A stretch of 64,000 bases of DNA, taken from positions 62,001-126,000 of the forward strand of contig CM120646.1 of NCBI GenBank assembly GCA_051362555.1. Reading direction: 5' to 3'. A program made the position numbers and the translations under genes. A model generated the notes under the pieces. The model saw only the letters and a list, made by a program, of their open reading frames with translations. It searched no databases and was not told where the DNA came from. Positions 417 to 44,600 of the stretch are shown one piece after another (the stretch's first letter is position 1; every line of letters begins with the position of its first letter). This DNA is from Lingula anatina (taxonomy: Eukaryota > Animalia > Brachiopoda).

Positions 417-3400
417 AGGTGCAGCTGGCCGTCAAGTGTGTCGGTATCTGCGGCTCTGATCTCCATTATTTTGAGGAAGGCCGACTTAACAAGTTTGTCG
501 TGAAGGAACCGTTAATCCTAGGGCACGAGGTTAGCGGAACAGTGAAGGCTGTCGGAGAGGGTGTCACCAATCTCATAGTTGGTAAGGGTTCATTTGTGCA
601 GTTAACAATGACTGGAATTGCTTATTTGTAGTGTTGAGCAGTAACCAAGCTAAAAGATCTGTTTTTGTACATCTTCAAAGTGTATATTTCCTTAATACTA
701 TAGTACAAAGTAGGAGTTGCCATTCAACAGCATATGCACAATGTACCATGTAAGAACATTACAGACCTGTTATACATGTAGCGACCTCATTGGTTATACG
801 TGTACTTTATATAAAGCAGACTCGGGTCAGATGGTCTTAACTAGTGTAAACCTGGCACACAGTGTATGTATGTACATGTATGTATGTATGTATGTATGTA
901 TGTATGTATTCACGTGTGTGATCTTCCAGGTGACCGTGTGGCCGTGGAACCCGGGGTATGTATGTATGTATGTATGTATGTTTGTATGTATGTGTTGATG
1001 ATCTTCCAGGTGACCGGGTGGCCGTGGAACCTGGGGTGCCGTGTAGGAGGTGTGAGTTCTGCATGGAAGGTAAATACAACCTTTGTCCAAACAGGCATTT
1101 CTGCGGAGCGCCCCCTGTCGGCGGGGCAATGAGACCTGTGATATGTCACCCGGCTGAGTTTTGTTACAAGTAAGTAGTATATGTACAAAGTTGCTAACCG
1201 GGTTTTTGTCCAGGCCAGGTGCAATCCTCCACAATTCGTGTCAAGCATAACGAAAATCATTTCATTTCTTATTACTTCAACTTGTTTAAAACCTAACGCA
1301 ACTACATGTATTAGGTCTATGTGCAGTATAAAATACAGGAAATATTGGACTCTGAGACTCAATACGTGTCATTTGTCCGTTGGGTCTTAGAAGAAGCCTG
1401 TATCCGCCATATTGTTGCGTGAAGGTGGGGGGTTTGTGGACCTCTAGTTTGTAATACCAAAATATAAATATACATGTGTAGTGTAAGTCATAGAAAAGGA
1501 AGCACGTGTATCTTACATTTACTATCAGTGTGACTCACATCAAATTTATTTTTCCTGTTAGTTGTATCTTTTCATACACCAGGTTACCGGACCACGTGAC
1601 CTTTGAGGAGGGAATGTTGATGGAGCCCCTCGCTGTAGCTGTCCACGCATGCGCACGGGCAGAGATTAAACCTGGCTCCAGCTTGCTTATCACCGGGGCT
1701 GGTAGGCATTTGTGAAATAAAGCATTGCCACAGTGAAAACTTGTAGATATTTTTATCAGAACAAATCATTTAGTCCCCACATCTCAACTTCCTTCTCGTT
1801 AAAGATTGTCAAATTAAAAGCTGTATAATTATCTTATATATTTGAATGTTTTTTTGTTAAATGTGTTACAGGTCCCATTGGAATTATGGTTCTCATAGCG
1901 GCAAAGGCAATGGGGGCGTCAAATATCTGCGTCACAGGTAATTAGACAGCTCTTATAACGCACACACGCACACACACATTTAATTGTAAACGCACACATA
2001 GGGGCCTACATATTGTTACACACATGTACAGTAGATTCTAGTCGCAACTGATAGTTCAGTGTGGACTCCAAAGATAACTGTATGGTGATACAAAAGTATA
2101 AGTTCAACTCCTCGCCAGCCTGGAGCACGTGCATCCTGTACCCCAGAACATGGTACAACAGATGTGGGGCTTCTGATACTAGTTTTATATCTGTGAGAGT
2201 TTGTATCCCGGAGTTATTCTCGTAATCACAGGAGATTAAATGCTATTCTTTGCGTTCGTTATTGTTTTGATGACATATTGTGCTTTCTTTCTCAGACCTT
2301 GTTCAGAGCCGACTAGACTTCGCCAAAGGCATGGGAGCGTCACACACCGTTCTTGTGAAGGCAGACGACGACATAGAGGTCACTGCGGCCAAGGTGAGCC
2401 ACATCCTGGGCTGTGGTCACGTGCAGGCGGCTGTGGACACGAGTGGAGCGGAGAGCGCCGTACAGTTAGCTATCCTGGTGAGTTGCGAACGCCACGCATC
2501 CGTTGAAGGTTCATGTCAGTGTCAAGTAAACTGTGACAAATTGAAATAACTTCAAACAGTGCAGACAAAAGTCGCAAGCATATACTTTTTTGATATGTTA
2601 CGTAAAAGTGCTAAACGCATAACTGACTTTTCCATGATCCATCTACTCATAAAACCCATGTGCTTGTCTATAAACCTGTTTATATAATTATCGTGTACGT
2701 ACACGACATTTACATACCTGTACACGTGAAACGTCACTTGATAAAGTTGGTCAAACAGACAGACATGTAGATACAATGCAAACAAACATAAAGGCCAACA
2801 AATAAAATACTTCCATCTACATGTATGGACACGAATCTTTAAAAATCACCTAATGACTAAGTTGTTTTTTATCTTTAGGTTACAAAACCTGGGCGTATTG
2901 TTGCCACAGTTGGATTGGGTCCGGCTAATATCGCCATTCCACTTAATCAGGTCACTTTCAAGCAAATAGACTTGAGAGGTTGCCGAACCTACTGCAATAA
3001 GTAAGTGTATGACCAGTCAGTTCTTTATACCTCCATCAACAAAATAGACTTGAGAGGATGTTGTACCTACTGTAATAAGTAAGTGTGTGACCAGTCAGTT
3101 CTTTATACCTCCACCAACAAAATAGACTTGAGAGGATGTTGTACCTACTGTAATAAGTAAGTGTGTGACCAGTCAGTTCTTTATACCTCCACCAACAAAA
3201 TAGACTTGAGAGGATGTTGTACCTACTGTAATAAGTAAGTGTGTGGCCAGTCAGTTCTTTATACCTCCATCAACAAAATAGACTTGAGAGGATGTTGTAC
3301 CTACTGCAATAAGTAAGTGTGTGACCAGTCAGTTCTTTAAACCTCCATCAACAAAATAGACTTGAGAGGATGTTGTACCTACTGTAATAAGTAAGTGTGT

Positions 3401-3885
3401 GGCCAGTCAGTTCTTTATACCTCCATCAACAAAATAGACTTGAGAGGATGCCGTACCTACTGCAATAAGTAAGTGTGTGGCATGTCAGTTCTTTATACCT
3501 CCATCAACCACTGTTTATGCTGACCCAGTGTAGTACAAACACGTTCGTGTAGCTAACCCGGGGTAAAGGCTTATATGTACTTTTTGACACCAGTGCCGCG
3601 TATAGTCGGGGTATTCAGTTTTTTTAATCTTTTAAGACACCAAACATGTCCTCCAGATGGTGTGTATAACATTCACAATGGTGTGCTTTACCTTCCAGCC
3701 AGCATGAAGTACTGAACCTAGTAGCTTCCGGCCAGGTGGACATTAAGCCGTTGGTCAGCCACAGATTTCCGCTGGACCAAGCTCTGGAAGCGTTTGACGT
3801 GGCCAGAGGGCGCCAGGGCATGAAATGCGTCCTCCAGTGTTCTGAGCCTGAATTAAATGGGACGGTTCTTCAGAATGGACACTAA
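417..3885 (+). CDS. SORD: Sorbitol dehydrogenase-like zinc-binding (MDR family) gene; 5' exons lie upstream of the window
   Basis: Exons 417-581, 1010-1169, 1583-1701, 1872-1937, 2296-2477, 2879-3000, 3699-3885 (TAA), all AG/GT bounded and in frame. Motifs: GICGSDLHY, LGHEVSG, GDRVAVEPGVPCRRCEFCMEGKYNLC, LMEPLAVAVHAC, GAGPIG, SHRFPL. Orthology to SORD versus a paralogue is not established. Confidence 0.9.
864..996. repeat. (TATG)n microsatellite interrupted by a duplicated splice acceptor
   Basis: tatg runs at 864-909 and 957-991 flank a copy of atcttccag|gtgaccgtgtggccgtggaacccgggg. Confidence 0.85.
2963..3508 (+). repeat. 78-bp tandem array spanning a SORD-like exon donor (7 copies)
   Basis: GTAAGT donors at 3001, 3079, 3157, 3235, 3313, 3391, 3469, each preceded by ~38 bp of exon end. 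Confidence 0.95.
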
Positions 3886-5198: not shown

Positions 5199-5234
<36 letters not shown>

Positions 5235-6050
5235 CTGTGTGTGTTATGTGTGTGTGTGTGTGTGTGTGTGTTATGTGTGTGTGTGTGTGTGTTGTGTGTG
5301 TGTTATGTGTGTGTGTGTGTGTTGTGTGTGTGTTATGTGTGTGTGTGTGTGTTATGTGTGTGTGTGTGTGTGTTATGTGTGTGTGTGAGCGCGCACCTGT
5401 CTTTCAGTCTGTCTGTGTATCTGTACCAACAATCTGTGATTGTTTGTGTATTGTAAGGTAGAGTCGTATTCTGTTGCCAGAGAAGTAAGTGTTCCCTCAG
5501 TTATGTTGGTATATGTATTAGGCTGCCGGACCACGTCACCCTGGAAGAAGACACGCTTTTGGAGCCTCTGGCTGTAGCTGTCTACGGTTGCTCGTGTGCA
5601 GGCACTCGGCCTGGAAACAGCGTGTGATAACAGGAGCCGGTAAGTGCTCACTGTGTGTGCGCGCGCTCGTGTGTGCGTGTGTGTACATGTGTGTGCCAGA
5701 TCTTTTTTTGTAAAGAAAAACTTTAATTAAAGAAAAACACCATATAACAAGTACTTATATGTGTTAATGTTACCGGTATGTGGATGATATTGGTCAGACA
5801 AATATGACCGACGAAAAAGTGGCGTACAAGTAGCTTTCCTTTTGGAAGAAGGCCAACATACATACAGACATTGTGATCACCACGATCAAAATCATTTAAT
5901 TTTCCTAATTCTCACCCATCGTTTTATTTACCCTGATGTGCGTCAGGATCCACAGATTTCGCAGAACGTTGGAGTGACCCTCGCAGTTTTAGTGGACCCG
6001 GGAGAGGACATTGGCTGGGTTACCAATCGAGTGAAAGACTTGTTTGGACA
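5070..6050 (+). pseudogene. Degenerate tandem SORD-like paralogue (three exon remnants)
   Basis: 5075-5197 MAVGSLIPSRQCSLCPDGCHNTC..RFCGG/CHPANSCHK carries a deletion and frameshift relative to exon 1010-1169. 5522-5639 LPDHVTLEEDTLLEPLAVAVYGC...frameshift/stop...ITGA|gtaagt matches exon 1583-1701. ~5955-6050 QNVGVTLAVLVDPGEDIGWVTNRVKDLFG matches exon 2296-2477. Confidence 0.8.
5203..5387. repeat. (CT)n/(GT)n compound microsatellite
   Basis: Seen directly. Confidence 0.9.
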
Positions 6051-8043: not shown

Positions 8044-8237
8044 GATTTACCTACCAAATTCAGCAGGGCCAAAAGACTCTAGATTTACCTACCGAATTCA
8101 GCAGGGCCAAAAGACTCTAGATTTACCTACCAAATTCAGCAGGGCCAGAAGACTCTAGATTTACCTACCAAATTCAGCAGGGCCAGAAGACTCTAGATTT
8201 ACCTACCAAATTCAGCAGGGCCAGAAGACTCTAGATT
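8044..8237. repeat. 38-bp minisatellite, 5 copies
   Basis: Unit gatttacctaccaaattcagcagggccaRaagactcta. Confidence 0.9.
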
Positions 8238-9252
8238 AATTTTAATGTCGAGGAATCAAAAGGAAATCTTTTCAGACACGAGAGTAAAGTGCTTCTTAAA
8301 CAAACAAGACTGGGTTCCCATGCCTAGATTGATCCATCTGGATCGGTCTAACGCCCTGGGGAGTCTCACCAAATTGCTAGCAACTAACCGGCTTAAATGT
8401 CTGTCACGCCTACCGAATCAGCTAGGGTGTAGATATAATTATCCACAGCCATTCCAGTCCGCCATGACCATATTTGACACTGCTCTGTGAATATTTTACT
8501 TGTAATCCATATATAAGAATAGGTAGTGCGTCTGGCTTTTAGAAAGCATGAACCTTAAAATAAATTGCAAACCCTACATAATCATTCCCCCCTTCAATTA
8601 ACCAGGGATTTATTGCTTTGCACATGGCGGACGGTCGGTCTGTAACCAGATCCTGTACCGCCAGTCTATAGAGAAGGTTTGGTCTACTGTCCTCGTACTT
8701 TGTGGATAGGTTTTTTTATCACATCAAATGGTCCCTTTTGAGTTTGACGTCAGTAGATCAAAAGCCAAGGTTCACATTGAATTTCGACTTAAATCTTGTC
8801 CTACTAGTAAATAGAAAACGATGTGGTTGGATGCAACAGATAGAATCCGAAAGCAAGTTAAAGGTAGCCTTATCTACGAAATTTTCCCCGAAAAAAAGCA
8901 ATTTGCTCTTACTCACCTCTGTAATTGTACATGAGTGCAGGACAAACACACGTTTGCCAAATGTGACATGATTTTTATTTCTTTTTTTTTTAATTTTTAT
9001 ATACGATAATATACAAACTGCTGTATATATACTGATAATATACAAACTGTAAATAATTAAATAAAATTAAAAGCTTCTGAAATTTAATAACTGTAATTCT
9101 AAATCGGTTAAAACAACTGATGCACCTCGTACCAGTAGGTAGTTTAGGTTTTTAAAAATACCCACTGACGGCCATCTTGCACCCGAAGTGTTTTTGTCTA
9201 ATGTTCTAACACTACAGGCTGCCTCGGAGATAATTACTTCCCAATCTTGATC

Positions 9253-9492
9253 AATGTTCACCATATATTGAACATATCTCAGCTAGTATAAAAAGACCAA
9301 GCTTACCCTCATTCTCAATGTTCACCATATATTGAACATATCTCAGCAAGTATAAAAAGACCAAGCTTACCCTCATTCTCTCCTCTGACCAGCCCAAAGA
9401 TAAATACCATATATTGAACATATCTCAGCTAGTATAAAAAGACCAAGCTTACCCTCATTCTCTCCTCTGACCAGCCCCAAGATAAATACCAT
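9253..9492. repeat. Tandem repeat, 3 copies (about 63-85 bp)
   Basis: Core ccatatattgaacatatctcagctagtataaaaagaccaagcttaccctcattctc repeated three times. Confidence 0.85.
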
Positions 9493-9614: not shown

Positions 9615-9616
<2 letters not shown>

Positions 9617-9696: not shown

Positions 9697-9702
<6 letters not shown>

Positions 9703-13514: not shown

Positions 13515-14318
13515 ATGACATATAACCAAGACAATAAATATCCACTCCGGTAAAGTTGTGTGCAGTCCTAACATGGACAGGGGTAATCATAGAGAGGGCT
13601 GACCTACGGCCATTGTTCTCCTCGGGCACCCTGGACATTTTCATAGTCTATAACGTGTCCCTCCATATCGTTTCAAACCATTTCGCGAGTGTAATTTCTG
13701 TTTGTAGATTTTTTCTAAAAGAAGTCTAACGGCTGTTAACTACTTTAAATGTGCCAAATATTCGTAGGCCGTCGGTACAAAGTATAACTCTTTGTCCTTT
13801 CGGAACAATTTGTACCTTTTAACCGATAGGAAGGCAAATAATGTCAGTAATTAAGCTATTTTGACCTTGGCTTTTGGGGGGAGGGGGGCTGGGCTTGGTT
13901 GTATACCTGTACTCACTCGCGGTCTTCTATCTTCCCTGTGATACTAACAGCCAAGGTCACGAGAGTTGTCGTCAATTTGACTGCTCCTATTGGCTGGCCA
14001 ACTCACCACACTGATAGGAAAAAATGTTCCAGTCTAAATGTTCAAATCATGGTATATTGGCAAAGAAGTTGAAGTTAACCGACCCAAATATAATTACTTT
14101 GGGACATTTGGAGTTCATAACACATCCCAATATTTTACACTCGCAAGAACGGAATAGCATGCTTATTTTTATACGTATTTTTCGGTCAGACCTTATGGAC
14201 TAGTAGGAGTGACGTCACGCCACCTTGACGAACCATGATGACGAGTGGTCCAATGTTGAAAACTAAAGCCTGAGGTGTGGTAAGCCGACTAAAAGTTCAT
14301 GCGTGCTGTAGGGGTTAA

Positions 14319-16783
14319 AGGACAATGTTCATGTAAAAATCCATTTCTCGAATTTTGAAGATACAGCACTCAATCTATACACTAGAGGTATGTTTTAATC
14401 GATCCCCGCCATTTAAAAATTATAAAAACAATCTATTAGTAGAAAAAAAGCGTTTTAGTAAACCTCACCTCAATATGCAAAAATGAAGCAACAGATCTGG
14501 GTCACGTGGTACTGTGACGACAATCACGATAAAGGTCTATGAGACTCAACTGAGCTGCAGGTGCATACAGACGGAGAAGTTAAGGAAAGTTGTGTTGAAC
14601 GGAGTTGAGGAATTTTCGTTATGCCTCGGTGTGTTGCCGTGGGATTCACCAAAATTGCAGCTCTCGTTGACAATCTTTCTTTGTCTGTGACGGTCTTCCG
14701 TGACTTACTTACTAACTTCGGTGACAATAGTTGCGATGCTCTAGATCATGGTCACCTCAGGTGGTTTAGATCATATCAAGAGCTGGTAGTCTTTCATATT
14801 AACTGTCATCAGTTGGCAAACTTACTGATTGCTGATGCATTTTAAATGCATTGTAGTTGACCAAAAGCTCGTTTACAACAAACCTGTTAATTATGCACCG
14901 CTGCAATTCCCAAGCCAGGTAATAACAGGTATGAAACTCGTCTTGGTGGGCTTTCATATTTTTCAATATATCTCATTTATTTCATGGGGTTATTTTATTG
15001 GTATTTGTAAATGACGTTAAATATCAATACTTAAACAATTAAGTTCAAACACGGTCGCGAACATTAATAAAAGAAATTGCTCTCAGGGTATCTTGAGGCT
15101 TCCGTGGAAGAAAACGTGTTGAGGAAAAACAGGAAAAAGAGCGTTATATTAAAGAAAAAATGGGAACTGCTATAATAAAATGGTTCGTTATCCTAATTCG
15201 TTTATGCTTTGAGGATTTGTTTCTGAAGATTATTTCATCTGAAATATTAAAGAATTTAAAAGATTGATTATTTTATAACTTGAAACGCAAATTCTGCGTC
15301 AGTACGCAATTTTTTTTTTTTTTTTGCAAATTTGTAAGCTTATAACAACGTGCTATAAAGATCTACTCAACAAAAAAATTTGCTTGGGTAAAATTGAGTA
15401 CGGAATGAACTGGAGACACTTGGCTTGTCATTAAGTTTACACGAAAATATGTCAGGTAACTTTATACTGTCTTTGAAAGAGTAAAGATTGAAAGATAATT
15501 TTAGACAAACTTTGACGGGGGAAATACCTACAAAGAGTAATGGGCTATTTCGCCAACATCTTGTTGAAAATTTTACACTGCAATTCTATCAAATAAGCTA
15601 AGGAACTAATTGCCAAATTAATACTCTCATCACATAACAGGGGGGTAACCAGACCTGCAAAAATTGTACGCACATATTTAAAAAGATTACAAGCACATAC
15701 AGCAAAATGTAGACTTACGCAAAACATGAAGGACAGCGTAATCACAGCAAATCTACCTCATATAGTAGCTTAATTTCCATTAATAATAAAATCATCATTT
15801 AAGTCAAAAATATTCTTGCGATTTAATAACTATTTTAATTTACCCAGAACGGTATATTTATTTTTAAAGGCGGTTAACTGAAATATAGTTTTATGATTTG
15901 TTTGTGAAAATTGCCCATGTCACCCTGTTAGTTTGGAGGTCTAAGCTGGATCAAGTCCGTGTTAAAATTCCTATGAAGTTGTGCAGGAAAAATTCTTCCT
16001 TTCTTTCTCTAGCTCCTCGATAAACCTGGTGTTCAGATTTTATCTAGTACCCCCAGGTCTACGGGAGCTGCGCTTTGTAACTAACGCACAGGTAGATTAT
16101 TACCGGAGATAACTGGAGTAAAGCTTAGATAGAGAGTGCGTTCGATACAAGCAAGACAAATTGAATGCCATTTAACCCTCTAATTAAGAGGTAAAGGAAG
16201 TTCCAGGTAGATGGATGATTAAGATAGGACTTGTAAAGGTAACGGGCATTGTTTACCTCAGTTTAATAAAAGTATGCAAGACGGAGTGTCAGCGGTTTAA
16301 TAAAATAAATTGAATTTCACAAATAACATGGACCTCATATGCAATAATCAACATTTCCCTTAACTCATTCAAATGCAGTGTTTTATACAGCTTGGGATAA
16401 CCATAATGAAATGCTTGTTAAAGAAATGACTAGACGGGAAATGGTTTTACACAGCTTCACGAGGATTTAGACCCCTCGGGTAAGAGATTTGAATGAGTAT
16501 AAACTTTTATCAGAAGCCAGAGAAGTCATCTTACAGGTAGACAATGCAGCTCAGTTTGACAGCTAAGCACGCTCTGTTCTCCAGTGGCTCGATTGTCGTC
16601 ATTGGACCACGTGACCACGTAGCTCATTAACTCCCAGGCCGAGCAAATAGGACGTTTTTTAAAGCCAAAAATTTACAAAATGAGCTTTTAATTTGTGTAT
16701 TTGGCTAAAGATATCGTTAGTTGGGCATGTTTTCTGAAGAATATGTTCCGTTCAGGCCATTCTGACGGCATGAAGCAAACCCT
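14319..16783. mobile_element. Non-autonomous TTAA-specific DNA transposon, Kolobok-like (copy 1)
   Basis: TTAA|AGGACAATGTTCATG...CATGAAGCAAACCCT|TTAA: TTAA TSD, RR..YY termini and short imperfect TIR. Subterminal inverted motifs ggtcacgtgg..tgacgacaatc / gattgtcgtca..ccacgtgacc. Near-identical copy at 26240-28701. No long ORF. Confidence 0.85.
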
Positions 16784-16817
16784 TTAAGCACTTATTGCTC
16801 ACGAAGATCACTGACCA

Positions 16818-26041: not shown

Positions 26042-29000
26042 TGATCGAAATAGATTAAGTATTTTAAATGATGAGTTTATTTATTAATCTCTGTGGCAGC
26101 TTGTGAAACAAAAACACGTGCTCTGCGTAAGACAAATTCACATCTTGAGAATAGTAACAGCTGACAAATAGCTAAGTACTGTGGAGTCTGACGGGAAGGA
26201 ACAATTCACCTAGTCATAAGCATCGCTCACACTACTTAAAGGACAATGTTCATGTAAAAATCCATTTCTCGAATTTTGAAGATACAGCACTCAATCTATA
26301 CACTAGAGGTATGTTTTAATCGATCCCCGCCATTTAAAAATTATAAAAACAATCTATTAGTAGAAAAAAAGCGTTTTAGTAAACCTCACCTCAATATGCA
26401 AAAATGAAGCAACAGATCTGGGTCACGTGGTACTGTGACAACAATCACGATAAAGGTCTTTGAGACTCAACTGAGCTGCGTGGTGCATACAGACGGAGAA
26501 GTTAAGGAAAGTTGTGTTGAACGGAGTTGAGGAATTTTCGTTATGCCTCGGTGTGTTGCCGTGGGATTCACCAAAATTGCAGCTCTCGTTGACAATCTTT
26601 CTTTGTCTGTGACGGTCTTCCGTGACTTACTTACTAACTTCGGTGACAATAGTTGCGATGCTCTAGATCATGGTCACCTCAGGTGGTTTAGATCATATCA
26701 AGAGCTGGTAGTCTTTTTTTAGATTAACTGTCATCAGTTGGCAAACTTACTGATTGCTGATGCATTTTAAATGCATTGTAGTTGACCAAAAGCTCGTTTA
26801 CAACAAACCTGTTAATTATGCACCGCTGCAATTCCCAAGCCAGGTAATAACAGGTATGAAACTCGTCTTGGTGGGCTTTCATATTTTTCAATATATCTCA
26901 TTTATTTCATGGGGTTATTTTATTGGTATTTGTAAATGACGTTAAATATCAATACTTAAACAATTAAGTTCAAACACGGTCGCGAACATTAATAAAAGAA
27001 ATTGCTCTCAGGGTATCTTGAAGCTTTCGTGGAAGAAAACGTGTTGAGGAAAAACAGGAAAAAGAGCGTTATATTAAAGAAAAAATGGGAACTTCTATAA
27101 TAAAATGGTTCCTTATCCTAATTCGTTTATGCTTTGAGGATTTGTTTCTGAAGATTATTTCATCTGAAATATTAAATAATTTAAAAGATTGATTATTTTA
27201 TAACTTGAAACGCAAATTCTGCGTCAGACGCAATTTTTTTTTTTTTGCAAATTTGTAAGCTTATAACACCGTGCTATAAAGATCTACTCAAGAAAAAAAA
27301 TTTGCTTGGGTAAAATTGAGTACGGAATGAACTGGAGACACTTGGCTTGTCATTAAGTTTACACGAAAATATGTCAGGTAACTTTATACTGTCTTTGAAA
27401 GAGTAAAGATTGAAAGATAATTTTAGACAAACTTTGACGGGGGAAATACCTACAAAGAGTAATGGGCTATTTCGCCAACATCTTGTTGAAAATTTTACAC
27501 TGCAATTCTATTCAAATAAGCTAAGGAACTAATTGCCAAATTAATACTCTCATCACATATAACAGGGGGGTAACCAGACCTGCAAAAATTGTACGCACAT
27601 ATTTAAAAAGATTACAAGCACATACAGCAAAATGTAGACTTACGCAAAACATGAAGGACAGCGTAATCACAGCAAATGTACCTCATATAGTAGCTTAAAT
27701 TCCATTAATAATAAAATCATCATTTAAGTCAAAAATATTCTTGCGATTTAATAACTATTTTAATTTACCCAGAACGGTATATTTATTTTAAAGGCGGTTA
27801 ACTGAAATAAGTTTTATGATTTGTTTGTGAAAATTGCCCATGTCACCCTTTTAGTTTGGAGGTCTAAGCTGGATCAAGTCCGTGTTAAAATTCCTATGAA
27901 GCAGGAAAAATTCTTCCTTTCTTTCTCTAGCTCCTCAATAAACCTGGTGTTCAGATTTTATCTAGTACCCCCAGGTCTACGGGAGCTGCGCTTTGTAACT
28001 AACGCACAGGTAGATTTTTACCTGAGATAACTGGAGTAAAGCTTAGATAGAGAGTGCGTTCGATACAAGCAAGACAAATTGAATGCCATTTAACCCTCTA
28101 ATTAAGAGGTAAGGGAAGTTCCAGTTAGATGGATGATTAAGATAGGACTTGTAAAGGTAACGGGCATTGTTTACCTCAGTTTAATAAAAGTATGCAAGAC
28201 GGAGTGTCAGCGGTTTAATAAAATAAATTGAATTTCACAAATAGCATGGACCTCATATGCAATAATCAACATTTCCCTTAACTCATTCAAATACAGTGTT
28301 TTATACAACTTGGGATAACCATAATGAAATGCTTGTTAAAGAAATGACTAGACGGGAAATGGTTTTACACAGCTTCACGAGGATTTAGACCCCTCGGGTA
28401 AGAGATTTGAATGAGTATAAACTTTTATCAGAAGCCAGAGAAGTCATCTTACAGGTAGACAATGCAGCTCAGTTTGACAGCTAAGCACGCTCTGTTCTCC
28501 AGTGGCTCGATTGTCGTCATTGGACCACGTGACCACGTAGCTCATTAACTCCCAGGCCGAGCAAATAGGACGTTTTTTAAAGCCAAAAATTTACAAAATG
28601 AGCTTTTAATATGTGTATTTGGATAAAGATATCGTTAGTTGGGCATGTTTTCTGAAGAATATGTTCCGTTCAGGCCATTCTGACGGCATGAAGCAAACCC
28701 TTTAAATCATTTCAGGTCAATACTGCACTGTGAACTAAACATAGAGGAACCGTATATTTTATTTCGACGGGGTACTGCTTACATGCAGGGGGAGGGGGGG
28801 GGGTTGTTTGGCCAAGCAACGTGCAGTGTTTTATTTCAGTTCCCGGGTCGGCCATTAAATGCCTGTCTTAATTTCAACTTCTTTGTGTTAATTTCGCTCT
28901 AAAAAGATTGAATTGCGTCAACTCTTTTCAATTGCTATAGATGTTTTAAAAGCGTAATGCACCCTTTCATCCATAATTTCAATAAAACACTGGATAATAA

Positions 29001-30527: not shown

Positions 30528-33500
30528 TATTTTTTAATTTTATTTTTCATGGTGTGTTTAATCCGAGCGTGAGGACAGACCTGTGGCGAACAGGGCTACC
30601 ATCATTTTTGACAGAAAATAAGAAGTAAGAAAAAAAACGTGTTATTGATTGAATAAATAAAACAAAAAATAAAATAAATGGTCCAAACATCCAACTCCTA
30701 ATACAAGACACATATCCCGGTGAAACCTGAATGAGAGTCAAGCATGATGGACAGTCCGCTTCCCATCCATTTTATATACCAAGAAGAGTGACACCAGTGG
30801 TTTGTATCTATTCCAGACTATTTCTTATACCAAGAAGAGTGACACCAATGGTTTATATCTATTCCAGACTATTTCTTATAACAAGAAGAGTGACACCAGT
30901 GGTTTGTATCTATTCCAGACTATTTCTTATACCAAGAAGAGTGACACCAATGGTTTATATCTATTCCAGACTATTTCTTATACCAAGAAGAGTGACACCA
31001 GTGGTTTGTATCTATTCCAGACTATTTCTTATACCAAGAAGAGTGACACCAGTGGTTTGTATCTATTCCAGACTATTTCTTATACCAAGAAGAGTGACAC
31101 CAGTGGTTTGTATCTATTCCAGACTATTTCTTATACCAAGAAGAGTGACACCAGTGGTTTGTATCTATTCCAGACTATTTCTTATACCAAGAAGAGTGAC
31201 ACCAGTGGTTTGTATCTACAGTGGGTGGGCACTTTGAGGACAGGAAACAATTGCGGCGGCTGCGCTGCACAGTACTACTTCACCATTGACAACGCTGAAT
31301 GCTCCGACCCTGACGCCATCAATTGGTCTGAATACCACCCTAACGCAAGGGACCATCACAAAATAGCCGACTGTAAGCATACTGAGTCTCGTCTATCCCT
31401 TACACTGAACTCTGTACTTGTCCGACTAAACATACTGACTCCTTTCTATCCCTTACACTGAACTCTGTATTTGTCCGACTGGAAACATACTGACTCCCCT
31501 CTATCCCTTACACTGAACTCTGTATTTGTCCGACTGTAAACATACTGAATCCCTCTATCCCTTACACTGAACTGTTTATTTATCCAAATGTCAACATACT
31601 GAATCCCTGTATCCCTTACACTGAACTGTATTTGTCCGACTGTAAACATACTGAATCCCTCTATCCCTTACACTGAACTCTGTATTTATCCTACTGTAAA
31701 CATACTGAATCCCTGTATCCCTTACACTGAACTGTATTTGTCCGACTGTAAACATACTGAATCCCTCTATCCCTTACACTGAACTGTATTTGTCCGACTG
31801 TAAATATACTGAATCCCCTCTATCCCTTACACTGGACTCTATTTGTCCGACTATAAACATATTGTATCCCCTCTATCCCTTACACTGAACTCTGTATTTG
31901 TCCTACTGTAAACATATTGTATCCCCTCTATCCCTTACACTGAACTCTGTATTTGTCCTACTGTAAACATATTGTATCCCCTCTATCCCTTACACTGGAC
32001 TCTGTATTTGTCCTACTGTAAACATATTGTATCCCCTCTATCCCTTACACTGGACTCTGTATTTGTCCTACTGTAAACATATTGTATCCCTCTATCCCTT
32101 ACACTGAACTCTGTATTTGTCAGCCTGTAAACAAACTGAATTTGGGATTACCTTGCTCCCATTTGTCATGCTTCAATGCATGCCCCAATTTACATACCAG
32201 AACAGCCGAGTGCTTGTTAACATCTCAACGTGTGCTAAAAAGGAGTCGGAGATGATAGACTTATGGAACAAATCCACGCGGTTAAATAAAAGAGTTCTCC
32301 GTTCAAATACTGCATAAAAATAGTACACTTCCTTTTGAACTACTAGAAGACTTTGTTTGTCCGTTGGTGCTTGGATATACCTTTTTATGTCCACGTTTGG
32401 TGTAATGTAAGAAAGTCTTATGACTTCCTCAACTACTAAACAGTACGCGATATGCACTGAAGAATATTTCCAACATTTATTTTGGAACTGAAAGTTCTCA
32501 CATATTATTCATGATATGTCAACGATATTTCACCTAATGTCACAAGATGATATGACCTCTGTTAATCTAATGTCTTCCGTACTGATCACGTGGCATTCAG
32601 GATGGTGGTCCAGAGACACATATTAATTCGTAGTTAAAGCCACTGTGCACGTGTGCTCCAAAGGCCTACTTTATCCATTGTCGCAGGGAAAGTGCGATCT
32701 ATAAACCCACTTACGATTTTAAAGTTTCTAAAGTAAGCCATCAGAGTGAAATCCACCTGTCTTCATCTCCGTTTTGAAAGTGACTGGAAAAATGAAACTT
32801 AACTATTGTCATTTATATCTAGTCTTTGGCATATGCAATGGCATTGGAGCGGGGTCTAGGACCATAGGCCTCCACGTCCGCCACCTAAGTGGGACTACCA
32901 ATAACTACGCAGGATGGAATGCCAGATCTCGGATCATCATCGCAGAGACAGAAGGCATCCCTGGAACAGGTTTGTACCTCCTCAAACTGAAGAGTTTTGG
33001 GTTTTTAGGAAATTTACCAAATACAGGATGTCACTTAGTTTACCACTCTGTCTACGATGTATGACAACCATATATGTAGTACAAGTAACATTTGCGGACG
33101 CTACTGAAAATACACAAACCTATAATATGAGAAATAATAATCATTTGAAGTATAGGATGGCATACACCATGCAAATTGTGGAATAAAAAATTTAGGTTTA
33201 AGATCAGTACAAGAGCCAAGACCATGTGGATAAAGCGTACTCGTACACTGTCATATATTTGTGTTTTTCTTCCAGCAACCTGTGAATCCTTGACTTCGTT
33301 CAACATTCAGCAGTTTACAACTGACTACTACGCCTCAACAAGAGACGAGAACGCCCACTGGGTAAATGGATGTTGTATCAAATATTGAAATCACAGACAG
33401 AGCAGTACTACTTGTTAATTCAACCTTTTCTTCCTTACCGAGTGAATTTGTGGTCAGGTTATCTTCCTCGTGTGTTCAGAAAAAGTTGCACATGCAAATA

Positions 33501-34970
33501 GGGTGTATTTGTAGAAATCGCAAAACCTACTCCAATGAAGTTTTATTTTTCACAAGCTGTACATAGAGACTCACTTCTTCACTACCAGGTCATGATCAGT
33601 GTTTCCTTGCGAAGGTCTTTTTTGAAACTTTAGTTTAAGAAAAAAAAAGCATTTTCGTCGAAGCAGAGTTTCAACCCTGACTTAACGCCACTGGCCATTG
33701 CTCTAAAACAGCCTCCATTTTCTTTCAGACAAACACGTATGTTAAACGCGCCAGTGACACTTCTCTGCGCCTGCGCATTGCCGTCAATCTCTATGAACAT
33801 GGCGACAGCTATTGTTCTCGGTGGTACTTCAAGTTCAATGGGGTGGAGTGTTCTGATCCTGGACCTCTGGAATTCGTGTGGTATGTCCGTGGTGACAGTG
33901 GGAGGAACGCCCACAGGGGATACAGCTGTAAGTAGGACACCCCTAATTACACCTTTTCTTGAAAGTTTAAAATGATAACAACTGTTCATTTTGGCCAAAA
34001 AATGAATTTTCCTGGGGTAAATAACGATTTTCCTTTACTTGCCAATGGTTAATGAATCCATTTCTACATTCAAAGTTAGTCCCTGTTTATAATTGGTAAA
34101 TAGTTTGTTTTAGAGTATAGGCATATATGGAGGTCACGTGGTCCGATTACAAGCAAAGATTTCAGAATAATAGCTTTAACTGTCGTTTTTGTGGTAAAAT
34201 AGAATATATTATATTGCTATGAGTTATTTACGATGTATTTATTTTGAATTATTGATCTCATACGAAGAGTTGTAATCCTCTTAAGTTCGGACAATTAAAA
34301 ATACAAAGAAAATCGCCTTTTTGAACAATGTATTGGCTTCTTTTTCATTCACGCCTTTGAAGTCATATTGAGAATAACGCAATGATTTCAGTATGATTTA
34401 CCCTTTTCTCGATTTGTTTAATTTTCTTTTAAAATGGCTTTAAATACAATTTTTTTACAATAAACACATATTATACTACATGTATAAACGCAAATGATTT
34501 GTGTTCCTTTCGGCAAACATGTAGCTGAGACATCTGCATTCAATGTATAGCTGGATTCAAACTATATTTACCAATCACTGAAACGGAAGATGTGTAACAA
34601 GATCTTAGATGTTGCAGGAGACAAGTACACATTCACATTTTTGGTTTCTATAGCACTACAAGAAAAGATGGCTGCCTAAATAAGGTGTTTCATTTCACTA
34701 CAGTTAATGGGATCTGCCATGGGGTTCCAGCCGGCACGGTCGTAGTGACATTCCATATAGGGATCTGTACAGGCTATAGCAGGAACAGTCCACATACTGG
34801 CTGGAACATGATCACCCACCTGTTGGTAGAGGAAACCAGGCTGGGGCAGGATATCAGTGCAGGTTAATGGAATACGTATAGTACCAGTAGTAATAGTAGT
34901 ACATTATCACCTACCTGTTGGTAGAAGAGACCAGGCTGGGGCAGGATATCAGTGCAGGTTAGTGGAATAC

Positions 34971-35045
<75 letters not shown>

Positions 35046-35148
35046 CATGATCACCTACCTGTTGGTAGAAGCAAGGAGTTATCTGTTATAACTCCTTGGT
35101 AGAAGAGACCAGGCTGGGGCAGGATATCAGTGCAGGTTAGTGGAATAC

Positions 35149-35190
<42 letters not shown>

Positions 35191-36771
35191 CATGATCACC
35201 TACCTGTTGGTAGAAGCAAGGAGTTATCTGTTATAACTCCTTGGTAGAAGAGACCAGGCTGGGGCAGGATATCAGTGCAGGTTAGTGGAATACGTAGTAG
35301 TAGTAATAGTAGTACATGATCACCTACCTGTTGGTAGAAGAGACCAGGCTGGGGCAGGATATCAGTGCAGGTTAGTGGAATACGTAGTAGTAGTAGTAGT
35401 AGTAGTAGTAGTGTTGGTGTTAGTAGTAGGCCTACCGGTAGTATAACAGTGGCGGATTTAGGGGGGGGGGGGGTGTCAGGTGTGCCCTGACCCCCTCCCC
35501 CTTAGAGAGGGAATGATATCAGCAGTTAGAAGTAGCACAAGCTGCAGGATTACGCCAACCATCAATTCAATGCACTCCACGAAACTCATGCTTTGTGTGA
35601 TTTTTTTTCCAGTTTTGACAGCGCAGGGTACTATAGCCCGCCTGCCAGTCTACAACCGTGTACAGTCCTACTGGGATTCGCTGAACAACGGCAACGACGT
35701 GGACTCCAACATCGCGGTAAGGTACAGGGCATGCTGGGATATGTAAAGGTACAGGTCATTCTGGGATATGTAAGGTACAGGGCACGCTGGGATATGTAAG
35801 GTACAGGACATGCTTTCTACACTCATCTATTCATGATGTGATTGAGTTTTTTACGCCCAATTTTCATTTCTTGATTCTAGTCGGTGACGTACACCAAGAA
35901 GTCATCGTTGAGTTCTGTCAACGTGGTTTGGACTACCAACATGTTTCAGCTAAATAACGCCAAATGTGCGCGGTGGTACATTACGTTCAATGGGGCCGAG
36001 TGCGCGGACCCAGGCAATATTGAGAGTGTTTTATACGAGAGAGACATCACGCACGCCACCAACGCAGATTGGCACCAACCCGGCATGGGTAAGATCAGTT
36101 GATTTTATACGGCATTCAACTCCATTATTCTACACTTACAAATATTATGATATACTACGATATGTACTGTACTTTCCTCTCGAGACGCCAGTTGGCTGGA
36201 CATGAAGAAGTCGACAAAGTCTGCTTTGGGTGCTTTGAACGAACACTTACTTGGTATAAACAATGTGATTATTTCTGCTATAAATATTTTGAACTAAATA
36301 ATATAATAGTTATGGTGAACATGGGGTTATATTTAGTACAGTATATAGATGAGATTTTAAATTTTTAATCTGAAGTTTATATTTTTTCGACACTAGCAGC
36401 TTTGTCAGTTTCCACAAAGCTACCTGTGTCTAAGTGAGGCATATATTTTCCAAGGAAAAACAGGAAAGCTTCACACAAGTTCCAACAATGCACTAGCGGA
36501 TCGTCTGACACATCTTATTGTTTCAGGCCTATATAATTTACGAGTCATAACAACACTAGGAACAAATGGCAGGGTACCATATGATCAACCGTTACATTTG
36601 CTCTATTTTTCTTGTCTTCTAGTGGAAGGGATATGTCACGGTCTGGCTGCCGGGACGTACACCGTGACCCTGGCAGTAACCAACTGTAATGGCTATAGCG
36701 GTGGAAACGCCTACACCGGCTGGGCATCCGGGACCTTCGCCATGATAGAGGAAGTCTTCATGGGCATCTAA
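24501..36771 (+). CDS. Secreted protein: signal peptide + PAN/apple + EGF-like + 3x CTHRC1 C-terminal-like domain (~603 aa)
   Basis: Exons 24501-24863, 29569-29674, 30343-30434, 31174-31372, 32823-32969, 33276-33361, 33729-33927, 34704-34862, 35613-35716, 35881-36088, 36623-36771; 1812 nt, in frame, all GT-AG. PAN-like ECILACTRNFRCRSSYFNTVDKTCYM. Three repeats of Y.K....S.L..C..WY..FNG.EC.DP / G.C.G..AG...GW....I.EE, matching the CTHRC1 C-terminal pattern (CQRWYFTFNGAEC, EGLCEGIGAG, TGWNSVSRIIIEE). Confidence 0.85.
26240..28701. mobile_element. Non-autonomous TTAA-specific DNA transposon, Kolobok-like (copy 2, in intron 1 of the PAN-CTHRC1-domain gene)
   Basis: TTAA at 26236-26239 and 28702-28705. 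Same termini and orientation as 14319-16783, with only scattered SNPs and small indels. Confidence 0.85.
30775..31218 (+). repeat. 51-bp tandem array spanning a splice acceptor (8 acceptors)
   Basis: ttccAG ends at 30816, 30867, 30918, 30969, 31020, 31071, 31122, 31173, each followed by the first 45 nt of the exon. Confidence 0.95.
31367..32140 (+). repeat. ~52-55-bp tandem array starting at an exon donor (~15 copies)
   Basis: Unit ccgact|gtaaRcatactgaatccctctatcccttacactgaactctgtatttgt. The first unit contains the real donor at 31373. Confidence 0.9.
34806..35412 (+). repeat. Exon-end + donor duplications (5 copies) interleaved with (GTA)n microsatellite
   Basis: ...gatatcagtgcag|gttaRt with the GT at 34863, 34958, 35136, 35281, 35371. 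Confidence 0.9.
35717..35814 (+). repeat. 26-27-bp repeat starting exactly at a donor (about 3.7 copies)
   Basis: Unit gtaaggtacagggcatgctgggatat. Confidence 0.85.
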
Positions 36772-38656: not shown

Positions 38657-41600
38657 TCAGGACCAAATATCTTCCAGGTATTTTCTACTCTGTCTCTTTT
38701 CCATTAGATAAACCCTGGCTTCTTCCAGGCTGAAACCTAAAAAAAAAAAAAATAAAAATACAGCACATAAGACTTAACCACTGCTGTAAAATTGAGGGGA
38801 ACATCAATGTTTTGCACCTAAGGAACTTTACTTCATCTATTCTTTACAATGGTACGCAACATTTTTGTGTGTGAATATACGTACCTTTTATCATCTGCAA
38901 AATATCCAAGAATTTCTCATTAACGTTCCTTGCCATATTTTTGGCATCCCCACACACATACACTACAGCTCCGTGGCAGTCAATAAGGTCCACTACTTCC
39001 TGTGCATGGAGTCCCAGGTTGTCTTGCACATAGCGTGGAGCGCCATCTGGTAGTTGGTCTCTTGAGAAGGATGTCAAAAGTTTTGTAAGGATACCTTCTT
39101 TGGCAAACTGCTCCAACTGCTCTCTGGAAATGGGATGAGAACTGCAATGATAGTCTTAATTTATTAAGTTTTGAGTCAAGATCTTTGAGATATAAACTGG
39201 TTCTTTAGCTCAGTTTTCACCAAGGAACATCCCAACCACTTACGACACATCCACGAATGACATCAGTGAAGAATTATACATATTATATTTCATATACAGT
39301 TTCAATACACTTATATGTCTAGTTACCCTGGGAAAAGTTGTCAAATATTAACTAAAACTGTACCCAGGTGGGTGTGCAAATTAATCCAAGATGAAGGTTA
39401 TTTCATTTGTGGGAAGGGTGATAGTTTTATCATTATATTCTCACATACCACAAGGCTCAGTGTTTACCTGTACAAAAAGTCCTTGTCTTTATGTCTGCAG
39501 CCAAAGAATAGCCAGGTAGCTCCAAGGGTGGGCGGGGCTTGAATTTTCTTCAGTTCAGCCCTAAAAATAGTTATATATATTGATTTGACATTTTTGGTAC
39601 CGCATTTTGTGTAATCCACTTAATTTTCCATTCTTGTCAATATAATTTCACAATGGACATAAAATGCACAAACAAAGAAAAAAAAGAGAAAATTATTTAT
39701 TATAATTTAAGCAGTAGTCAGTGTGTCCTTGCATGCATGCATGCGCAAGCACGCGCGCTATGTGTGTGTGTGCGTGCGCGTGTGCGTGTGTGTTTGTGTG
39801 TGTGTGCTAGGGTCTACCTGTGCTGTAGGAACCCTACAAAAGGTGCCACTCCTGTGCCAGGACCTATCATGATCAAGGGTGTGTCAAGCGACTGTGGATG
39901 GTGGAAATACTGGTTGCTGCGCTGGTAAATGGGGACCTAAAGTTTTAACAGAAAAGATATCAACTGATTTGAACAGGAATGGCTTGTCACCTCATAAACC
40001 TTACTCAATTCATTTTTTTTTAAATTTACTACTTCTATTTTCTCATAAAACAAATTCTACACGACTCATATTTTAAAAAATATGTCCATTACCTATTTTT
40101 GTAAAGCCTAACTGATTAAACACTGCTAAACAGATACATGTGTATATATAATAATCAACTACACATTTTTACATGATAAATTAGATCTTTGAAATATAAG
40201 GACATTTTATTCATTTATCCCCGGAAGTCATATTGAAATGGAGTCACAGTGAATATTTTCCTTGCTGAAAATGAACAGACCTTAGGCATGTGTAAGCTCA
40301 GACTCTGGACCTTATCCAGCAACCATCTGTCACCAACTGTCCCAGTCTGGGAGGTGGCTGTCCCATGCTCCTCCATGTCCACAACTGTCCCAGTCTGGGG
40401 TGTGGTTGTCCCATGCTCCTCCATGTCCCCAACTGTCCCAGTCTGGGAGGTGGCTGTCCTGTGCTCCTCAATGTCCCCAACTGTCCCAGTCTGGGAGGTG
40501 GCTGTCCCATGCTCCTCCACGTCTGCAGTTATGCTAGTCTGAGAGGTGGCTGTCCCGTGCTCCTCCATGTCCCAAGTTATCCCAGTCTGAGAGGTGGCTG
40601 TCCCATGCTCCTCCATTTTCCCATTTATCCCAGTCTGGCAGGCAGCAGTCAGCCTGTTCAGCCATCCCGTGCACACACCCTGACGGGACAGAATCCTTCC
40701 CTCTCCAGACGGAAACTCCAGGATGTTGAAGACAAAATGGAGGCGCCCAGGTCTGGCCAGAGGAGAGCTGCTACAGGAGTAGGGGCGGCCCTGCAGCCGT
40801 GGCAGGTGCTCTGAAGATAAATGACCAGGTGGGGTGAAATCAGGTCAATTATAGGAACTGGTTTTGTGAAAAGTTTTAAAATCTTAACCATGTTATTTAC
40901 ACAAACTGTACATTGATAAATATTTATCTCTTTCCTAGATATTGATACTGAGCAAGTTAACATTTTTTGGCTGAAAAAACTCAATTTTGCTAATCAAGCA
41001 TTTAATTCCACACTGTTCCCTTTTTCTTCCCTTGACATGACATAAATAATACCTTTCGTCATAACTACATTCAGGTGGAGTGATATCAAGAGAACAATGC
41101 TATTATATTTGAGTGTTAAACACAAACTTACCAAGCACCCTACTCCACGGAGGAGTGCATGCTGGGAAAGCACGGAGAATATCGTACAAGGTCACCTTGC
41201 TTTCCCTGATGAACTTGGCATAATCAGGAGCTCCCTCACGACTGCTTAGTTCCAGCAAACGTCTCTTCTGTCCATCATGTGAAGTGTACTCAGCCAGCAG
41301 ACGTAAAAAAGCCTGAAAAAGGTTAGAATACACTTAAGTTATCAAAGCATCCTACAACACTATAGGTCTTCACAAATTCAAATATAATAATTAGTCTTTT
41401 AGAATCCAGTTTATTTAGGGATGTGACTGGGTCAGAATTAGAATCCTCTCAAATAAGAAAATTCCCAGAATAATTGCCTCACTTCACCTAATACATTATT
41501 TCCTTGTTTTGCACTGCGCTGTCACCAGGGCATGACGGGCAGTAAAACCACACCCATTTCTTACCTTCTTTGGTGCTGCTCTGATATCACACCCTGTCAC

Positions 41601-44600
41601 CAGGGCATGATGGACAGTAAAACTATGTCCATTTCTTACCTTCTTTGGTGCTGCTCTGATAATATCACTCCCCCGTCACCAGGGCATGATGGACAGTAAA
41701 ACCACACCCATTTCTTACCTTTTTTGGTGCTGCTCTGATATCACACCCCGTCACCAGGGCATGTTGGACAGTAAAACCACACCCATTTCTTACCTTTTTT
41801 GGTGCTGCTCTGATATCACACCCCGTCACCAGGGCATGTTGGACAGTAAAACCACACCCATTTCTTACCTTTTTTGGTGCTGCTCTGATATCACACCCCG
41901 TCACCAGGGCATGACGGACAGTAAAACCACACCACTCTTACCTTCTTTGGTGCTGCTCTGAGATCACACCCCGTCACCAGGGCATGACGGACAGTAAAAC
42001 CACACCCACTCTTACCTTCTTTGGTGCTGCTCTGATATCACACCCTGTCACTAGGGCATGACGGACAGTAAAACTACGCCCATTTCTTACCTTCTTTGGT
42101 GCTGTTCTGATATCACACCCTGTCACCAGGGCATGGCGGACAGTAAAACCACGCCCATTTCTTACCTTCTTTGGTGCTGTTCTGATATCACACCCTGTCA
42201 CTAGGGCATGGCGGACAGTAAAACCACGCCCATTTCTTACCTTCTTTGGTGCTGTTCTGATATCACACCCTGTCACCAGGGCATGGCGGACAGTAAAACC
42301 ACGCCCATTTCTTACCTTCTTTGGTGCTGTTCTGATATCACACCCTGTCACCAGGGCATGGCGGACAGTAAAACCACGCCCATTTCTTACCTTCTTTGGT
42401 GCTGTTCTGATATCACACCCTGTCACCAGGGCATGACGGACAGTAAAACCACACCCACTCTTACCTTCTTTGGTGCTGCTCTGATATCACACCCTGTCAC
42501 TAGGGCATGACGGACAGTAAAACTACGCCCATTTCTTACCTTCTTTGGTGCTGTTCTGATATCACACCCTGTCACCAGGGCATGGCGGACAGTAAAACCA
42601 CGCCCATTTCTTACCTTCTTTGGTGCTGTTCTGATATCACACCCTGTCACTAGGGCATGGCGGACAGTAAAACCACGCCCATTTCTTACCTTCTTTGGTG
42701 CTGTTCTGATATCACACCCTGTCACCAGGGCATGGCGGACAGTAAAACCACGCCCATTTCTTACCTTCTTTGGTGCTGTTCTGATATCACACCCTGTCAC
42801 CAGGGCATGGCGGACAGTAAAACCACGCCCATTTCTTACCTTCTTTGGTGCTGTTCTGATATCACACCCTGTCACCAGGGCATGACGGACAGTAAAACCA
42901 CACCCACTCTTACCTTCTTTGGTGCTGTTCTGATATCACACCCTGTCACTAGGGCATGACGGACAGTAAAACCACACCCACTCTTACCTTCTTTGGTGCT
43001 GTTCTGATATCACACCCTGTCACCAGGGCATGACGGACAGTACAAGGGTTGGGGAGGTAGGGAGGTACCACAGCCAGCTTCTTTTTTGTTTCCTGCTTCA
43101 ACATCATTCTGAAGGGAACATCTGCTATGTCTGACAGCTGGAGCCTAGGAACAGAGAAAAATAACCACTTTAACAATCAATTGTATATATTAATTAGAAT
43201 AAGGACAAGGGCTCTGTTACATAGTTTTTCTGTAATCACCTTAGTTGTCAGTGTTTGTACCAACTCCACAAAAAGATTAAGTTTTGGTCAAAGTTTTACA
43301 GACTTCAATCAATTCCTCCAACTGTGAACATTTCAGGCAAACTTTTGAATTACCTGAAGAGATATACCACAAACATGTTAATTCAAACCCTTCCCCCTCC
43401 TTGATTAATTATTCATTACCTGTCAATCAACATATCACACTCCTTCTTGTCATTAACACAGACCACACCAAATGTGTCACCAGGCTCATAGTCTATTGAT
43501 GTCCCCTGAAACAACAAATCACGATGAGTTAAGACCACACTTCTTCCAATATATATCACTGCCATGCTAGACAGGACATGGGTATTGAATATATATAATT
43601 ATTCTATCATGTGTGTCCATCGAGACTAACACTGATCTCCTTTTAAATAGTATCAAACTGACACAAAATTTCATTCTAAAGTACAGAGTGCCATATAAAA
43701 ATATTGCACTCTGTAACTGTTTACAAAAATATTTTTGTTTTAAACATAGCTGCCAGAGAAGCAAAATAAGTGTTTTGCATGTGAATGAGCACTTCATATC
43801 CCTTGTACATGTAATATTTCCAAGCTAATAGTGGGATTTCAAGTTATGCTCTAATGAATTCTGACATATTCAAACACAATGAAAATCTGACAATACAATT
43901 GGCTTCATTTCCCAAGAGGCTTCACAACTATTGCTCTTGGAAAACTGAATGCTAAAAATTGTATCGAGTCATGACAGACTACCTGAAACATTCAGTAAAG
44001 ACTGGGAATATATTGCTGTAAATTTTTACAAAATACCTAACACATCACCTGTGTGTTGTCCAGTTCAATTACTTACTGTGATGTCCAGTTCAATGTCCAC
44101 AGCCTTACTTACTGTGATGTCCAGTTCAATGTCCACAGTCTTACTTACTGTGATGTCCGATTCAATGTCCACAGCCTTACTGTGATGTCCAGTTCAATGT
44201 CCACAGCCTTACTTACTGTGATGTCCAGTTCAATGTCCAGAGCGGTTTTCAAAGCATCTTCTCTAGTCAACCTGGTGGCGGACACTATGGTTGCCATGGT
44301 AACAGCTGATGTGGCAGATGGCATTGGGCAACCATTTTGAACTGGAATCTGGTCCTGATTATCCTGTGACATGGTGATAAAATATAGATTTTAAATATTG
44401 TCACAAAGTAGAACAGAAGTGAATGCACTTATAAAGGTTTGAAGGGAAAACAGTATTTCTTCTACTATGTAACATACCTTGCAAAATGTCAATCCTAAAG
44501 CTAAATGAGGAATGGGAATGACAGAACAGATGGGGGAAATACAGTGAAGTGGTCTATCAACTACTCACCCAGGAGGTACCATGAAATACAGTGAAGTGGT

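What the first reader, a model, noticed from the sequence alone, without database searches (positions are those of the whole stretch)
930..43041. Intronic exon-end copies differ from the live exon disproportionately at synonymous sites
Seen: SORD acceptor copy CGT/CGG and CCC/CCT (both synonymous). SORD donor copies GGA/GGT, TGT/TGC, CGT/CGA, TGT/TGC synonymous versus one CGT>TGT change; the most distal copy (3431-3468) still encodes IDLRGCRTYCN. CTHRC1-domain exon copies GAA GAG versus exon GAG GAA (both synonymous). MTRR copies CGC/CGT, CTA/CTG, ACG/ACA, AAA/AAG synonymous. By hand count roughly half of the variable sites are synonymous, versus about a quarter to a third expected for neutral intronic decay; the sample is small. 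Inference: the copies are snapshots of earlier or alternative exon alleles, or copies take turns serving as the exon end through unequal crossover or gene conversion. That would make the arrays a reservoir that can rewrite exon termini.
Basis: partly seen in the sequence, partly recalled or inferred. Interest (0 to 1): 0.75.

Follow-up and report, generated by a model that had tools for sequence, protein, structure and literature searches.

The report
Intron repeats keep old exon alleles
In the brachiopod Lingula, tandem copies of exon ends inside introns differ from the working exon at silent positions about half the time, likely because the copies keep versions of the exon that other animals of the species still use, an ordinary effect in a known repeat type whose possible flow back into exons remains untested.

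Summary
The window is Lingula anatina-type DNA. Its exon-end arrays are 'mirage' minisatellites, known from amphioxus and human genes; this scan noted them before in other genomes. The full count is 12 of 21 silent in those four arrays and 13 of 27 in all eight. That beats neutral decay of the copy (27-29%, p 0.003-0.03). It does not beat the fairer null in which the live exon also drifts at silent sites (40-45%, p 0.08-0.44). Reads support the 'snapshot' reading at four sites. A divergent run has the SORD copies' three silent letters in its spliced exon (4 of 4 reads). The Ala codon of the distal MTRR copies is the live codon in three RNA runs. A likely derived Thr codon is shared by the window's live MTRR exon and 11 of 19 copies, and all four Thr/Ala x intron-type combinations occur, so exon end and array exchange sequence. 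Copy-to-exon rewriting is plausible but not shown; exon-to-copy reseeding explains the data equally well.

The parts
930..957 (+). SORD-like acceptor copy, exon-derived part (live: 1010-1037); 2 silent differences
   Evidence: RNA X12 has no depth at 914-1002, and exon 419-581 continues into the live version (loose ends, 7 reads)
2964..3508 (+). SORD-like 78-nt donor array: live unit (exon end 2964-3000) plus 6 copies
   Evidence: Authentic donor at 3000 used (28 X12 and 4 X18 loose ends into the next exon)
2980..2986 (+). Three silent sites (2980, 2983, 2986) where the copies' letters are the live letters of run X18
   Evidence: 4 of 4 reads in X18, 0 of 38-40 in X12; chance about 0.002-0.003
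30775..31218 (+). CTHRC1-domain gene 51-nt acceptor array (45 nt exon + 6 nt intron), in frame and stop-free; 1 silent and 2 replacement variants; live acceptor not tested
   Evidence: RefSeq isoform P0006 holds two extra units relative to P0004
31367..32141 (+). CTHRC1-domain gene 55-nt donor array with about 6 exon bases per unit; not counted
34806..35404 (+). CTHRC1-domain gene donor array: live 34806-34862, two full and two interrupted copies; 2 silent and 2 replacement differences
   Evidence: not covered by reads
35717..35814 (+). 26-nt donor array that starts at the donor, no exon part; not counted
41519..43042 (-). MTRR 75-nt donor array: live unit (exon end 42988-43042), 19 full copies and one partial; 6-unit higher-order repeat
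   Evidence: Authentic donor used (loose ends 4, 9 and 41 reads)
43002..43002 (-). Thr/Ala site: Thr in the window's live exon and 11 of 19 copies, Ala in 8 copies and in the live exon of other animals
   Evidence: Ala: X18 6 of 6, X19 10 of 10, X13 34 of 48, X10 all 6 contigs; Thr in P0001 and P0002
44069..44243 (-). MTRR 36-nt donor array (live 44217-44243, 4 copies); all copies have Val where the exon has Leu
   Evidence: Leu in 112 of 120 homologues, Val in 0
44536..44679 (-). MTRR 47-nt donor array; exon part identical to the live exon
45560..45728 (-). MTRR 84-nt acceptor duplication; 10 exon bases, identical

Best explanation
These arrays are exon-boundary minisatellites whose intronic copies are normally spliced out, and they differ from the live exon mostly at silent sites likely because each copy keeps the exon allele it was made from while the live exon, under selection, likely goes on changing mainly at silent sites. 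Shown: the array anatomy; use of the authentic splice site in the four tested junctions that have differing copies; identity of four copy letters with live-exon letters in other animals; all four Thr/Ala x intron-type combinations in the MTRR array. Inferred: slippage or unequal crossover builds the arrays and reseeds them from the live unit more than once, so the exon end takes part in the array's concerted evolution. Copies then decay neutrally. The reciprocal product (copy into exon) should also form and be filtered by selection, but no case here requires it.
For: (1) The null with exon-side silent drift gives 0.40-0.45; observed 13 of 27. (2) Differences shared by all copies are 6 of 8 silent; variants in only some copies are 7 of 19, not above neutral (p 0.23-0.30). 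(3) X18 RNA carries the copy letters at 2980, 2983 and 2986 in 4 of 4 reads, a further difference at 2956 outside the duplicated part, and 4 loose ends that run into the next exon. Chance of three silent changes all matching copy letters is 0.002-0.003. The copy contig of DNA run X2 shows the same three letters and no 2984 row, while X2's live exon matches the window (the state at 2984 is inferred from the missing row). (4) Allele differences in SORD exons are themselves mostly silent: X18 12 of 19 outside the segment, X12 6 of 6. (5) MTRR Ala is live in X18, X19 and most X13 reads and fills the X10 array; Thr is in the window's exon and 11 of 19 copies; units are 10 Thr/long, 5 Ala/long, 3 Ala/short, 2 Thr/short. 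(6) The Val fixed in all four 36-mer copies is absent from the live exon in the window, P0001 and P0002 and from 120 homologues.
Against: Only 4 of 27 events were matched to a live allele elsewhere. The two SORD acceptor sites (1017, 1032) gave no row in X12 (about 140 reads deep) or X18 (about 4 deep). The four silent MTRR variants are not among the 40 rows shown, with 158 rows hidden. CTHRC1 sites were not covered. Without the four matched sites 10 of 23 remain silent (p 0.07-0.10 against neutral). The SORD result rests on 4 reads from 3 start points in one run. No outgroup DNA fixes the ancestral SORD letters, so X18's exon could instead have been overwritten by a copy. Three changes within 7 bases are somewhat more than the background (expected 0.9 in 37 nt, p 0.06). 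The 0.40-0.45 null assumes equal branch lengths; many-copy arrays should lie lower.
Confidence: 0.62

Rival explanations
1. The arrays act as donors: variants arise in one of many copies, spread, and are moved into the live exon end by unequal crossover or gene conversion; only silent or tolerated ones persist. The MTRR Thr allele, and perhaps the X18 SORD letters, would have arisen this way.
For: Thr is shared by the live exon and 11 of 19 copies, 10 of which have the other intron type. It is expressed and segregating (14 of 48 X13 reads; P0001, P0002). The site tolerates it (Ala 44, Thr 15 of 120 homologues). Nineteen copies are a larger mutation target than one exon (inference). A similar route was proposed for human CBS c.833T>C (PMC2630376; abstract and passages).
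Against: A path with only exon-to-copy duplication plus copy-copy recombination gives the same four combinations. All six X10 contigs carry Ala both in exon and array, which does not tell direction.
Confidence: 0.22
2. Copies are kept in frame by selection because their splice sites are sometimes used, so replacement changes are purged from the copies themselves.
For: Unit lengths of 75, 51, 36 and 78 are multiples of three. MTRR copies c1-c13 have no amino-acid change other than Thr/Ala. The 51-mer array is stop-free and RefSeq isoform P0006 includes two units. RNA reads cover the 36-mer array in X13 (10, sense strand) and X18 (12), with none over the rest of that intron in X13.
Against: The first MTRR intron part makes a 74-nt unit (frameshift), and the SORD donor reads into a stop. 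c1-c13 are recent duplicates, so few independent events. The 36-mer copies carry Val at a Leu-conserved site. No joint from a copy donor is listed. The 36-mer reads could be pre-mRNA of a much longer array (X10 depth 5348 there). Other arrays have units of 47, 55 and 26.
Confidence: 0.08
3. The excess is small-sample noise plus selective listing; the copies simply decay.
For: Events are not independent.
Against: The full count still exceeds neutral decay (p 0.015-0.027). The match of three SORD letters to another animal's exon has p 0.002-0.003, and the MTRR Ala match is seen in four runs.
Confidence: 0.08

Closest known systems
Amphioxus 'mirage' minisatellites (Adh3, globins BflGb6/BflGb9, troponin C, PGBD5); PMC3087553 (passages of the abstract and section 16), PMC3902484 (one passage). 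The original Adh3 paper was not available.
   Same: Head-to-tail copies of donor or acceptor boundaries with an exon part; normal splicing kept; unit number varies; concerted evolution inside the cluster with distinct edge units.
   Different: Different phylum (brachiopod). The passages read say cluster boundaries are excluded from homogenisation and do not treat codon positions. Here the live MTRR end shares likely derived states with proximal copies, and copy letters match live alleles of other animals.
Human F7 IVS7 37-bp VNTR and related boundary minisatellites (CBS IVS13, 6-16, LMNB2, PDGF); PMC1557585 (abstract, Introduction, Discussion)
   Same: First unit spans the exon-intron boundary, and the most upstream donor is the one used.
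   Different: The F7 unit holds only 4 exon bases, so there is no codon signal; here units hold 10-57 exon bases and several occur per gene.
Human CBS c.[833C; 844_845ins68]; PMC2630376 (abstract and passages)
   Same: A duplicated intron-exon junction whose spliced-out copy carries a coding variant; the authors propose that it enters live exons by gene conversion.
   Different: A single 68-bp duplication with a harmful variant and a proposed direction; here multi-copy arrays with silent or tolerated variants and unresolved direction.
Pseudogene versus parent gene divergence (recalled, no call; one search gave no clear citation)
   Same: A dead copy compared with its live parent shows a silent excess because the parent keeps changing at silent sites.
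   Different: Here the dead copy is a few codons next to the exon and can still exchange with it.

Membership tests
mirage minisatellite | Tandem unit spans an exon-intron boundary and repeats the splice signal | tested here: met
   Exon models open in frame; units cut at the splice sites
mirage minisatellite | Copies are spliced out; the authentic site is used | tested here: met
   SORD acceptor and donor; MTRR 75-mer donor and 36-mer main joint 43504-44216 with 12, 16 and 52 reads. The two long arrays were outside the laid stretches, so minor use of their copy donors was not measured
mirage minisatellite | No use of copy splice sites | tested here: inconclusive
mirage minisatellite | Unit number varies between haplotypes | tested here: inconclusive
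   P0003 reads through five 36-mer copies against four in the window; P0006 implies fewer 51-mers; X10 depth differs. Assembly collapse is not excluded
mirage minisatellite | Concerted evolution within the cluster, edge units distinct | tested here: met
   Six-unit higher-order repeat; distance from the live unit rises along the array (Spearman 0.55, p 0.016, 19 copies); SORD c6 differs from c1-c5
mirage minisatellite | Somatic length instability | not testable with these tools
   Needs single-animal tissue typing
CBS 844ins68-type donor copy | Variant moves from the spliced-out copy into the live exon | tested here: inconclusive
   Exchange shown for MTRR 43002, direction not resolved

The most novel reading that the evidence does not exclude
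Mirage arrays are a standing source of exon-end alleles. Variants arise among many neutral intronic copies and are moved into the live exon by unequal crossover, so protein sequence at array-bearing exon ends evolves partly inside introns. The segregating MTRR Thr allele is such an array-born amino-acid change.
Probability: 0.25. Interest if true: 0.7.

Novelty: new member of a known kind. Interest (0 to 1): 0.38.

Why it matters
If only the best explanation holds, the arrays are built-in outgroups: they record past exon alleles and let one polarise silent changes within a single genome. They also warn that copy reads can fake exon-end variants in DNA mapping. If the novel reading holds, exon ends beside such arrays have an extra, recombination-driven supply of alleles in animals rich in mirages, and this highly polymorphic species makes that testable with phased long reads.

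Tried and rejected
No RNA holder was listed by index; RNA came from runs added by species label. X15 laid 0 reads on SORD, so it is no test. CpG decay as the cause was rejected: a five-fold CpG weight lowers the silent expectation slightly (0.285 to 0.269). That X18 reads come from a paralogue is unlikely: the run is similarly divergent over MTRR and shares two SORD variants with X12; not excluded. That they come from copies is unlikely: they differ at 2956 outside the unit, lack the 2984 change and splice to the next exon. A copy's Thr at 44243 matching P0002's live residue was set aside: it is a unit-boundary base in a CpG context in the exon, and both residues are common in homologues (70 Ala, 44 Thr of 120). 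Paper searches listed no study of codon positions in boundary repeats and none on such repeats in Lingula. Term look-ups in two Lingula genome papers found no mention in the main text. Their supplements were not read and the Adh3 mirage paper was unavailable; any of these may bear on novelty.
Full report
Setting. Protein searches with single exons gave Lingula anatina proteins at 98% and 100% identity. Published heterozygosity is 1.6% (PMC4595640, passage), and the species name covers divergent local lineages (PMC8146825, abstract). No whole genome was held.

Anatomy. Ten tandem arrays or duplications sit on splice junctions of these three genes. Eight carry 10-57 exon bases per unit and were compared with the live exon. 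RNA shows the authentic sites in use. In SORD, exon 419-581 runs into the 1010 version and the donor at 3000 joins the next exon. In MTRR the donors at 42988 and 44217 are used.

Observation. Indels, boundary mismatches of one partial unit and four arrays with little or unverified exon content were dropped. Neutral decay of a copy predicts 0.27-0.29 for these codons, and the excess over it is significant (p 0.003-0.027). But the live exon also changes after the copy is made, mostly at silent sites. With equal branches the expectation is 0.40-0.45, and the excess over that is not significant (p 0.08-0.44). This is the usual pseudogene-versus-parent effect (recalled). As that model predicts, differences shared by all copies are 6 of 8 silent and variants in only some copies are 7 of 19 (Fisher p 0.10).

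Snapshot test, SORD. I laid three RNA runs and one DNA run on 380-3040. X12 (553 reads) matches the window at the donor sites. X15 gave no reads. X18 (36 reads, 22 listed differences, 15 silent) has the copies' letters at 2980, 2983 and 2986 in 4 of 4 reads, and 4 loose ends continue into the next exon. The chance that three silent changes all hit copy letters is 0.002-0.003. The copy contig of X2 shows the same three letters and no 2984 row, while X2's live exon matches the window. So the main copy type equals an allele that is live in a divergent animal. The distal copy lies between that allele and the window's. The acceptor sites 1017 and 1032 gave no rows. Without an outgroup the ancestral letters are inferred, not shown.

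Exchange test, MTRR. I laid three RNA runs and one DNA run on 42968-45640 (40 rows shown, 158 hidden). At 43002 the live codon is Ala in X18 (6 of 6), X19 (10 of 10) and 34 of 48 X13 reads. All six X10 contigs have Ala; their summed depth of 591 against about 44, and a joint that goes back one unit, show the array exists in that animal with the long intron part. Human MTRR has Ala there, and homologues have Ala 44, Thr 15 of 120. Thr is therefore likely derived and tolerated. It is in the window's exon, in P0001 and P0002, in 14 of 48 X13 reads, and in 11 of 19 copies. The live unit also shares a short intron part with c1, c7, c13 and c14. All four combinations occur, so units recombine and the live end shares likely derived states with copies. 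Direction is open: exon-to-copy duplication plus copy-copy recombination suffices, and so does copy-to-exon transfer. In the 36-mer array all copies have Val where the exon, P0001, P0002 and 112 of 120 homologues have Leu; one copy in the model P0003 has Leu.

Mechanism. Slippage or unequal crossover duplicates a junction and later reseeds the array from the live unit (inferred). Splicing keeps using the authentic site (shown for the tested junctions; in line with 5' scanning, PMC1557585). Copies hold the allele of their day and decay neutrally, while the exon drifts at silent sites or is swapped for another allele. The reciprocal crossover product would put copy sequence into the exon, and selection would filter it; this is expected but not demonstrated.

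Comparison. These are 'mirage' minisatellites as described in amphioxus (PMC3087553; PMC3902484), akin to the human F7 VNTR (PMC1557585). The nearest precedent for the rewriting idea is the gene-conversion model for CBS 844ins68 (PMC2630376). Earlier notes of this scan report mirages in sea urchin, abalone, annelid and shark DNA (unchecked). My searches found no codon-level or allele-level analysis of such arrays, but the Adh3 paper and supplements were not seen.

Verdict. A real but modest signal in a known repeat type, mostly explained by exon-side drift, with direct evidence that copies keep other alleles and one well-marked case of exchange with a live exon end. Interest 0.38; the donor reading has probability about 0.25.

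Noticed in passing
window 30775-31218: The 51-nt acceptor array is in frame and stop-free; RefSeq isoform P0006 includes two extra units through an upstream acceptor, P0004 none. It may be a variable-length coding ladder.
   Followed up: partly
window 44069-44243: RNA reads cover the 36-nt donor array in X13 (10, sense strand) and X18 (12), but none cover the rest of the intron in X13; X10 DNA depth is 5348 there. Either copy-donor use or a very long array in those animals.
   Followed up: partly
window 44217-44363: This MTRR exon is skipped in 4 X13 reads (joint 43504-44662).
   Followed up: no
window 40328-40642 and 44712-44911: In-frame coding repeats inside MTRR exons (48 nt and 99 nt). 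The 48-nt run differs between P0001 and P0002; an X10 joint 44585-44811 suggests fewer 99-nt and 47-nt units.
   Followed up: partly
window 5520-5640: Diverged copy of SORD exon 1583-1701 with its donor and a 1-nt deletion, downstream of the gene.
   Followed up: partly
window 9251-9492 and 8044-8237: Two more arrays with minus-strand donor motifs; the first abuts a 48-codon open stretch with no Pfam hit.
   Followed up: partly
window 14315-16787 and 26236-28705: A 2.5-kb element present twice at 98% identity.
   Followed up: no
window 46713-51133: LTR element in an MTRR intron: 556-nt terminal repeats 99.8% alike and a 950-aa ORF with DUF1759; a 55-nt array begins right after it (51137-52098).
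   Followed up: partly
window 55764-59213: Intact 1149-aa endonuclease plus reverse transcriptase ORF on the minus strand, LINE-like.
   Followed up: partly
window 21779-22939: Intronless 386-aa galactosyltransferase-family ORF.
   Followed up: partly
window 2980-2986: Three silent differences within 7 bases between the window's exon and X18's; may be one conversion tract from a diverged allele or paralogue.
   Followed up: no
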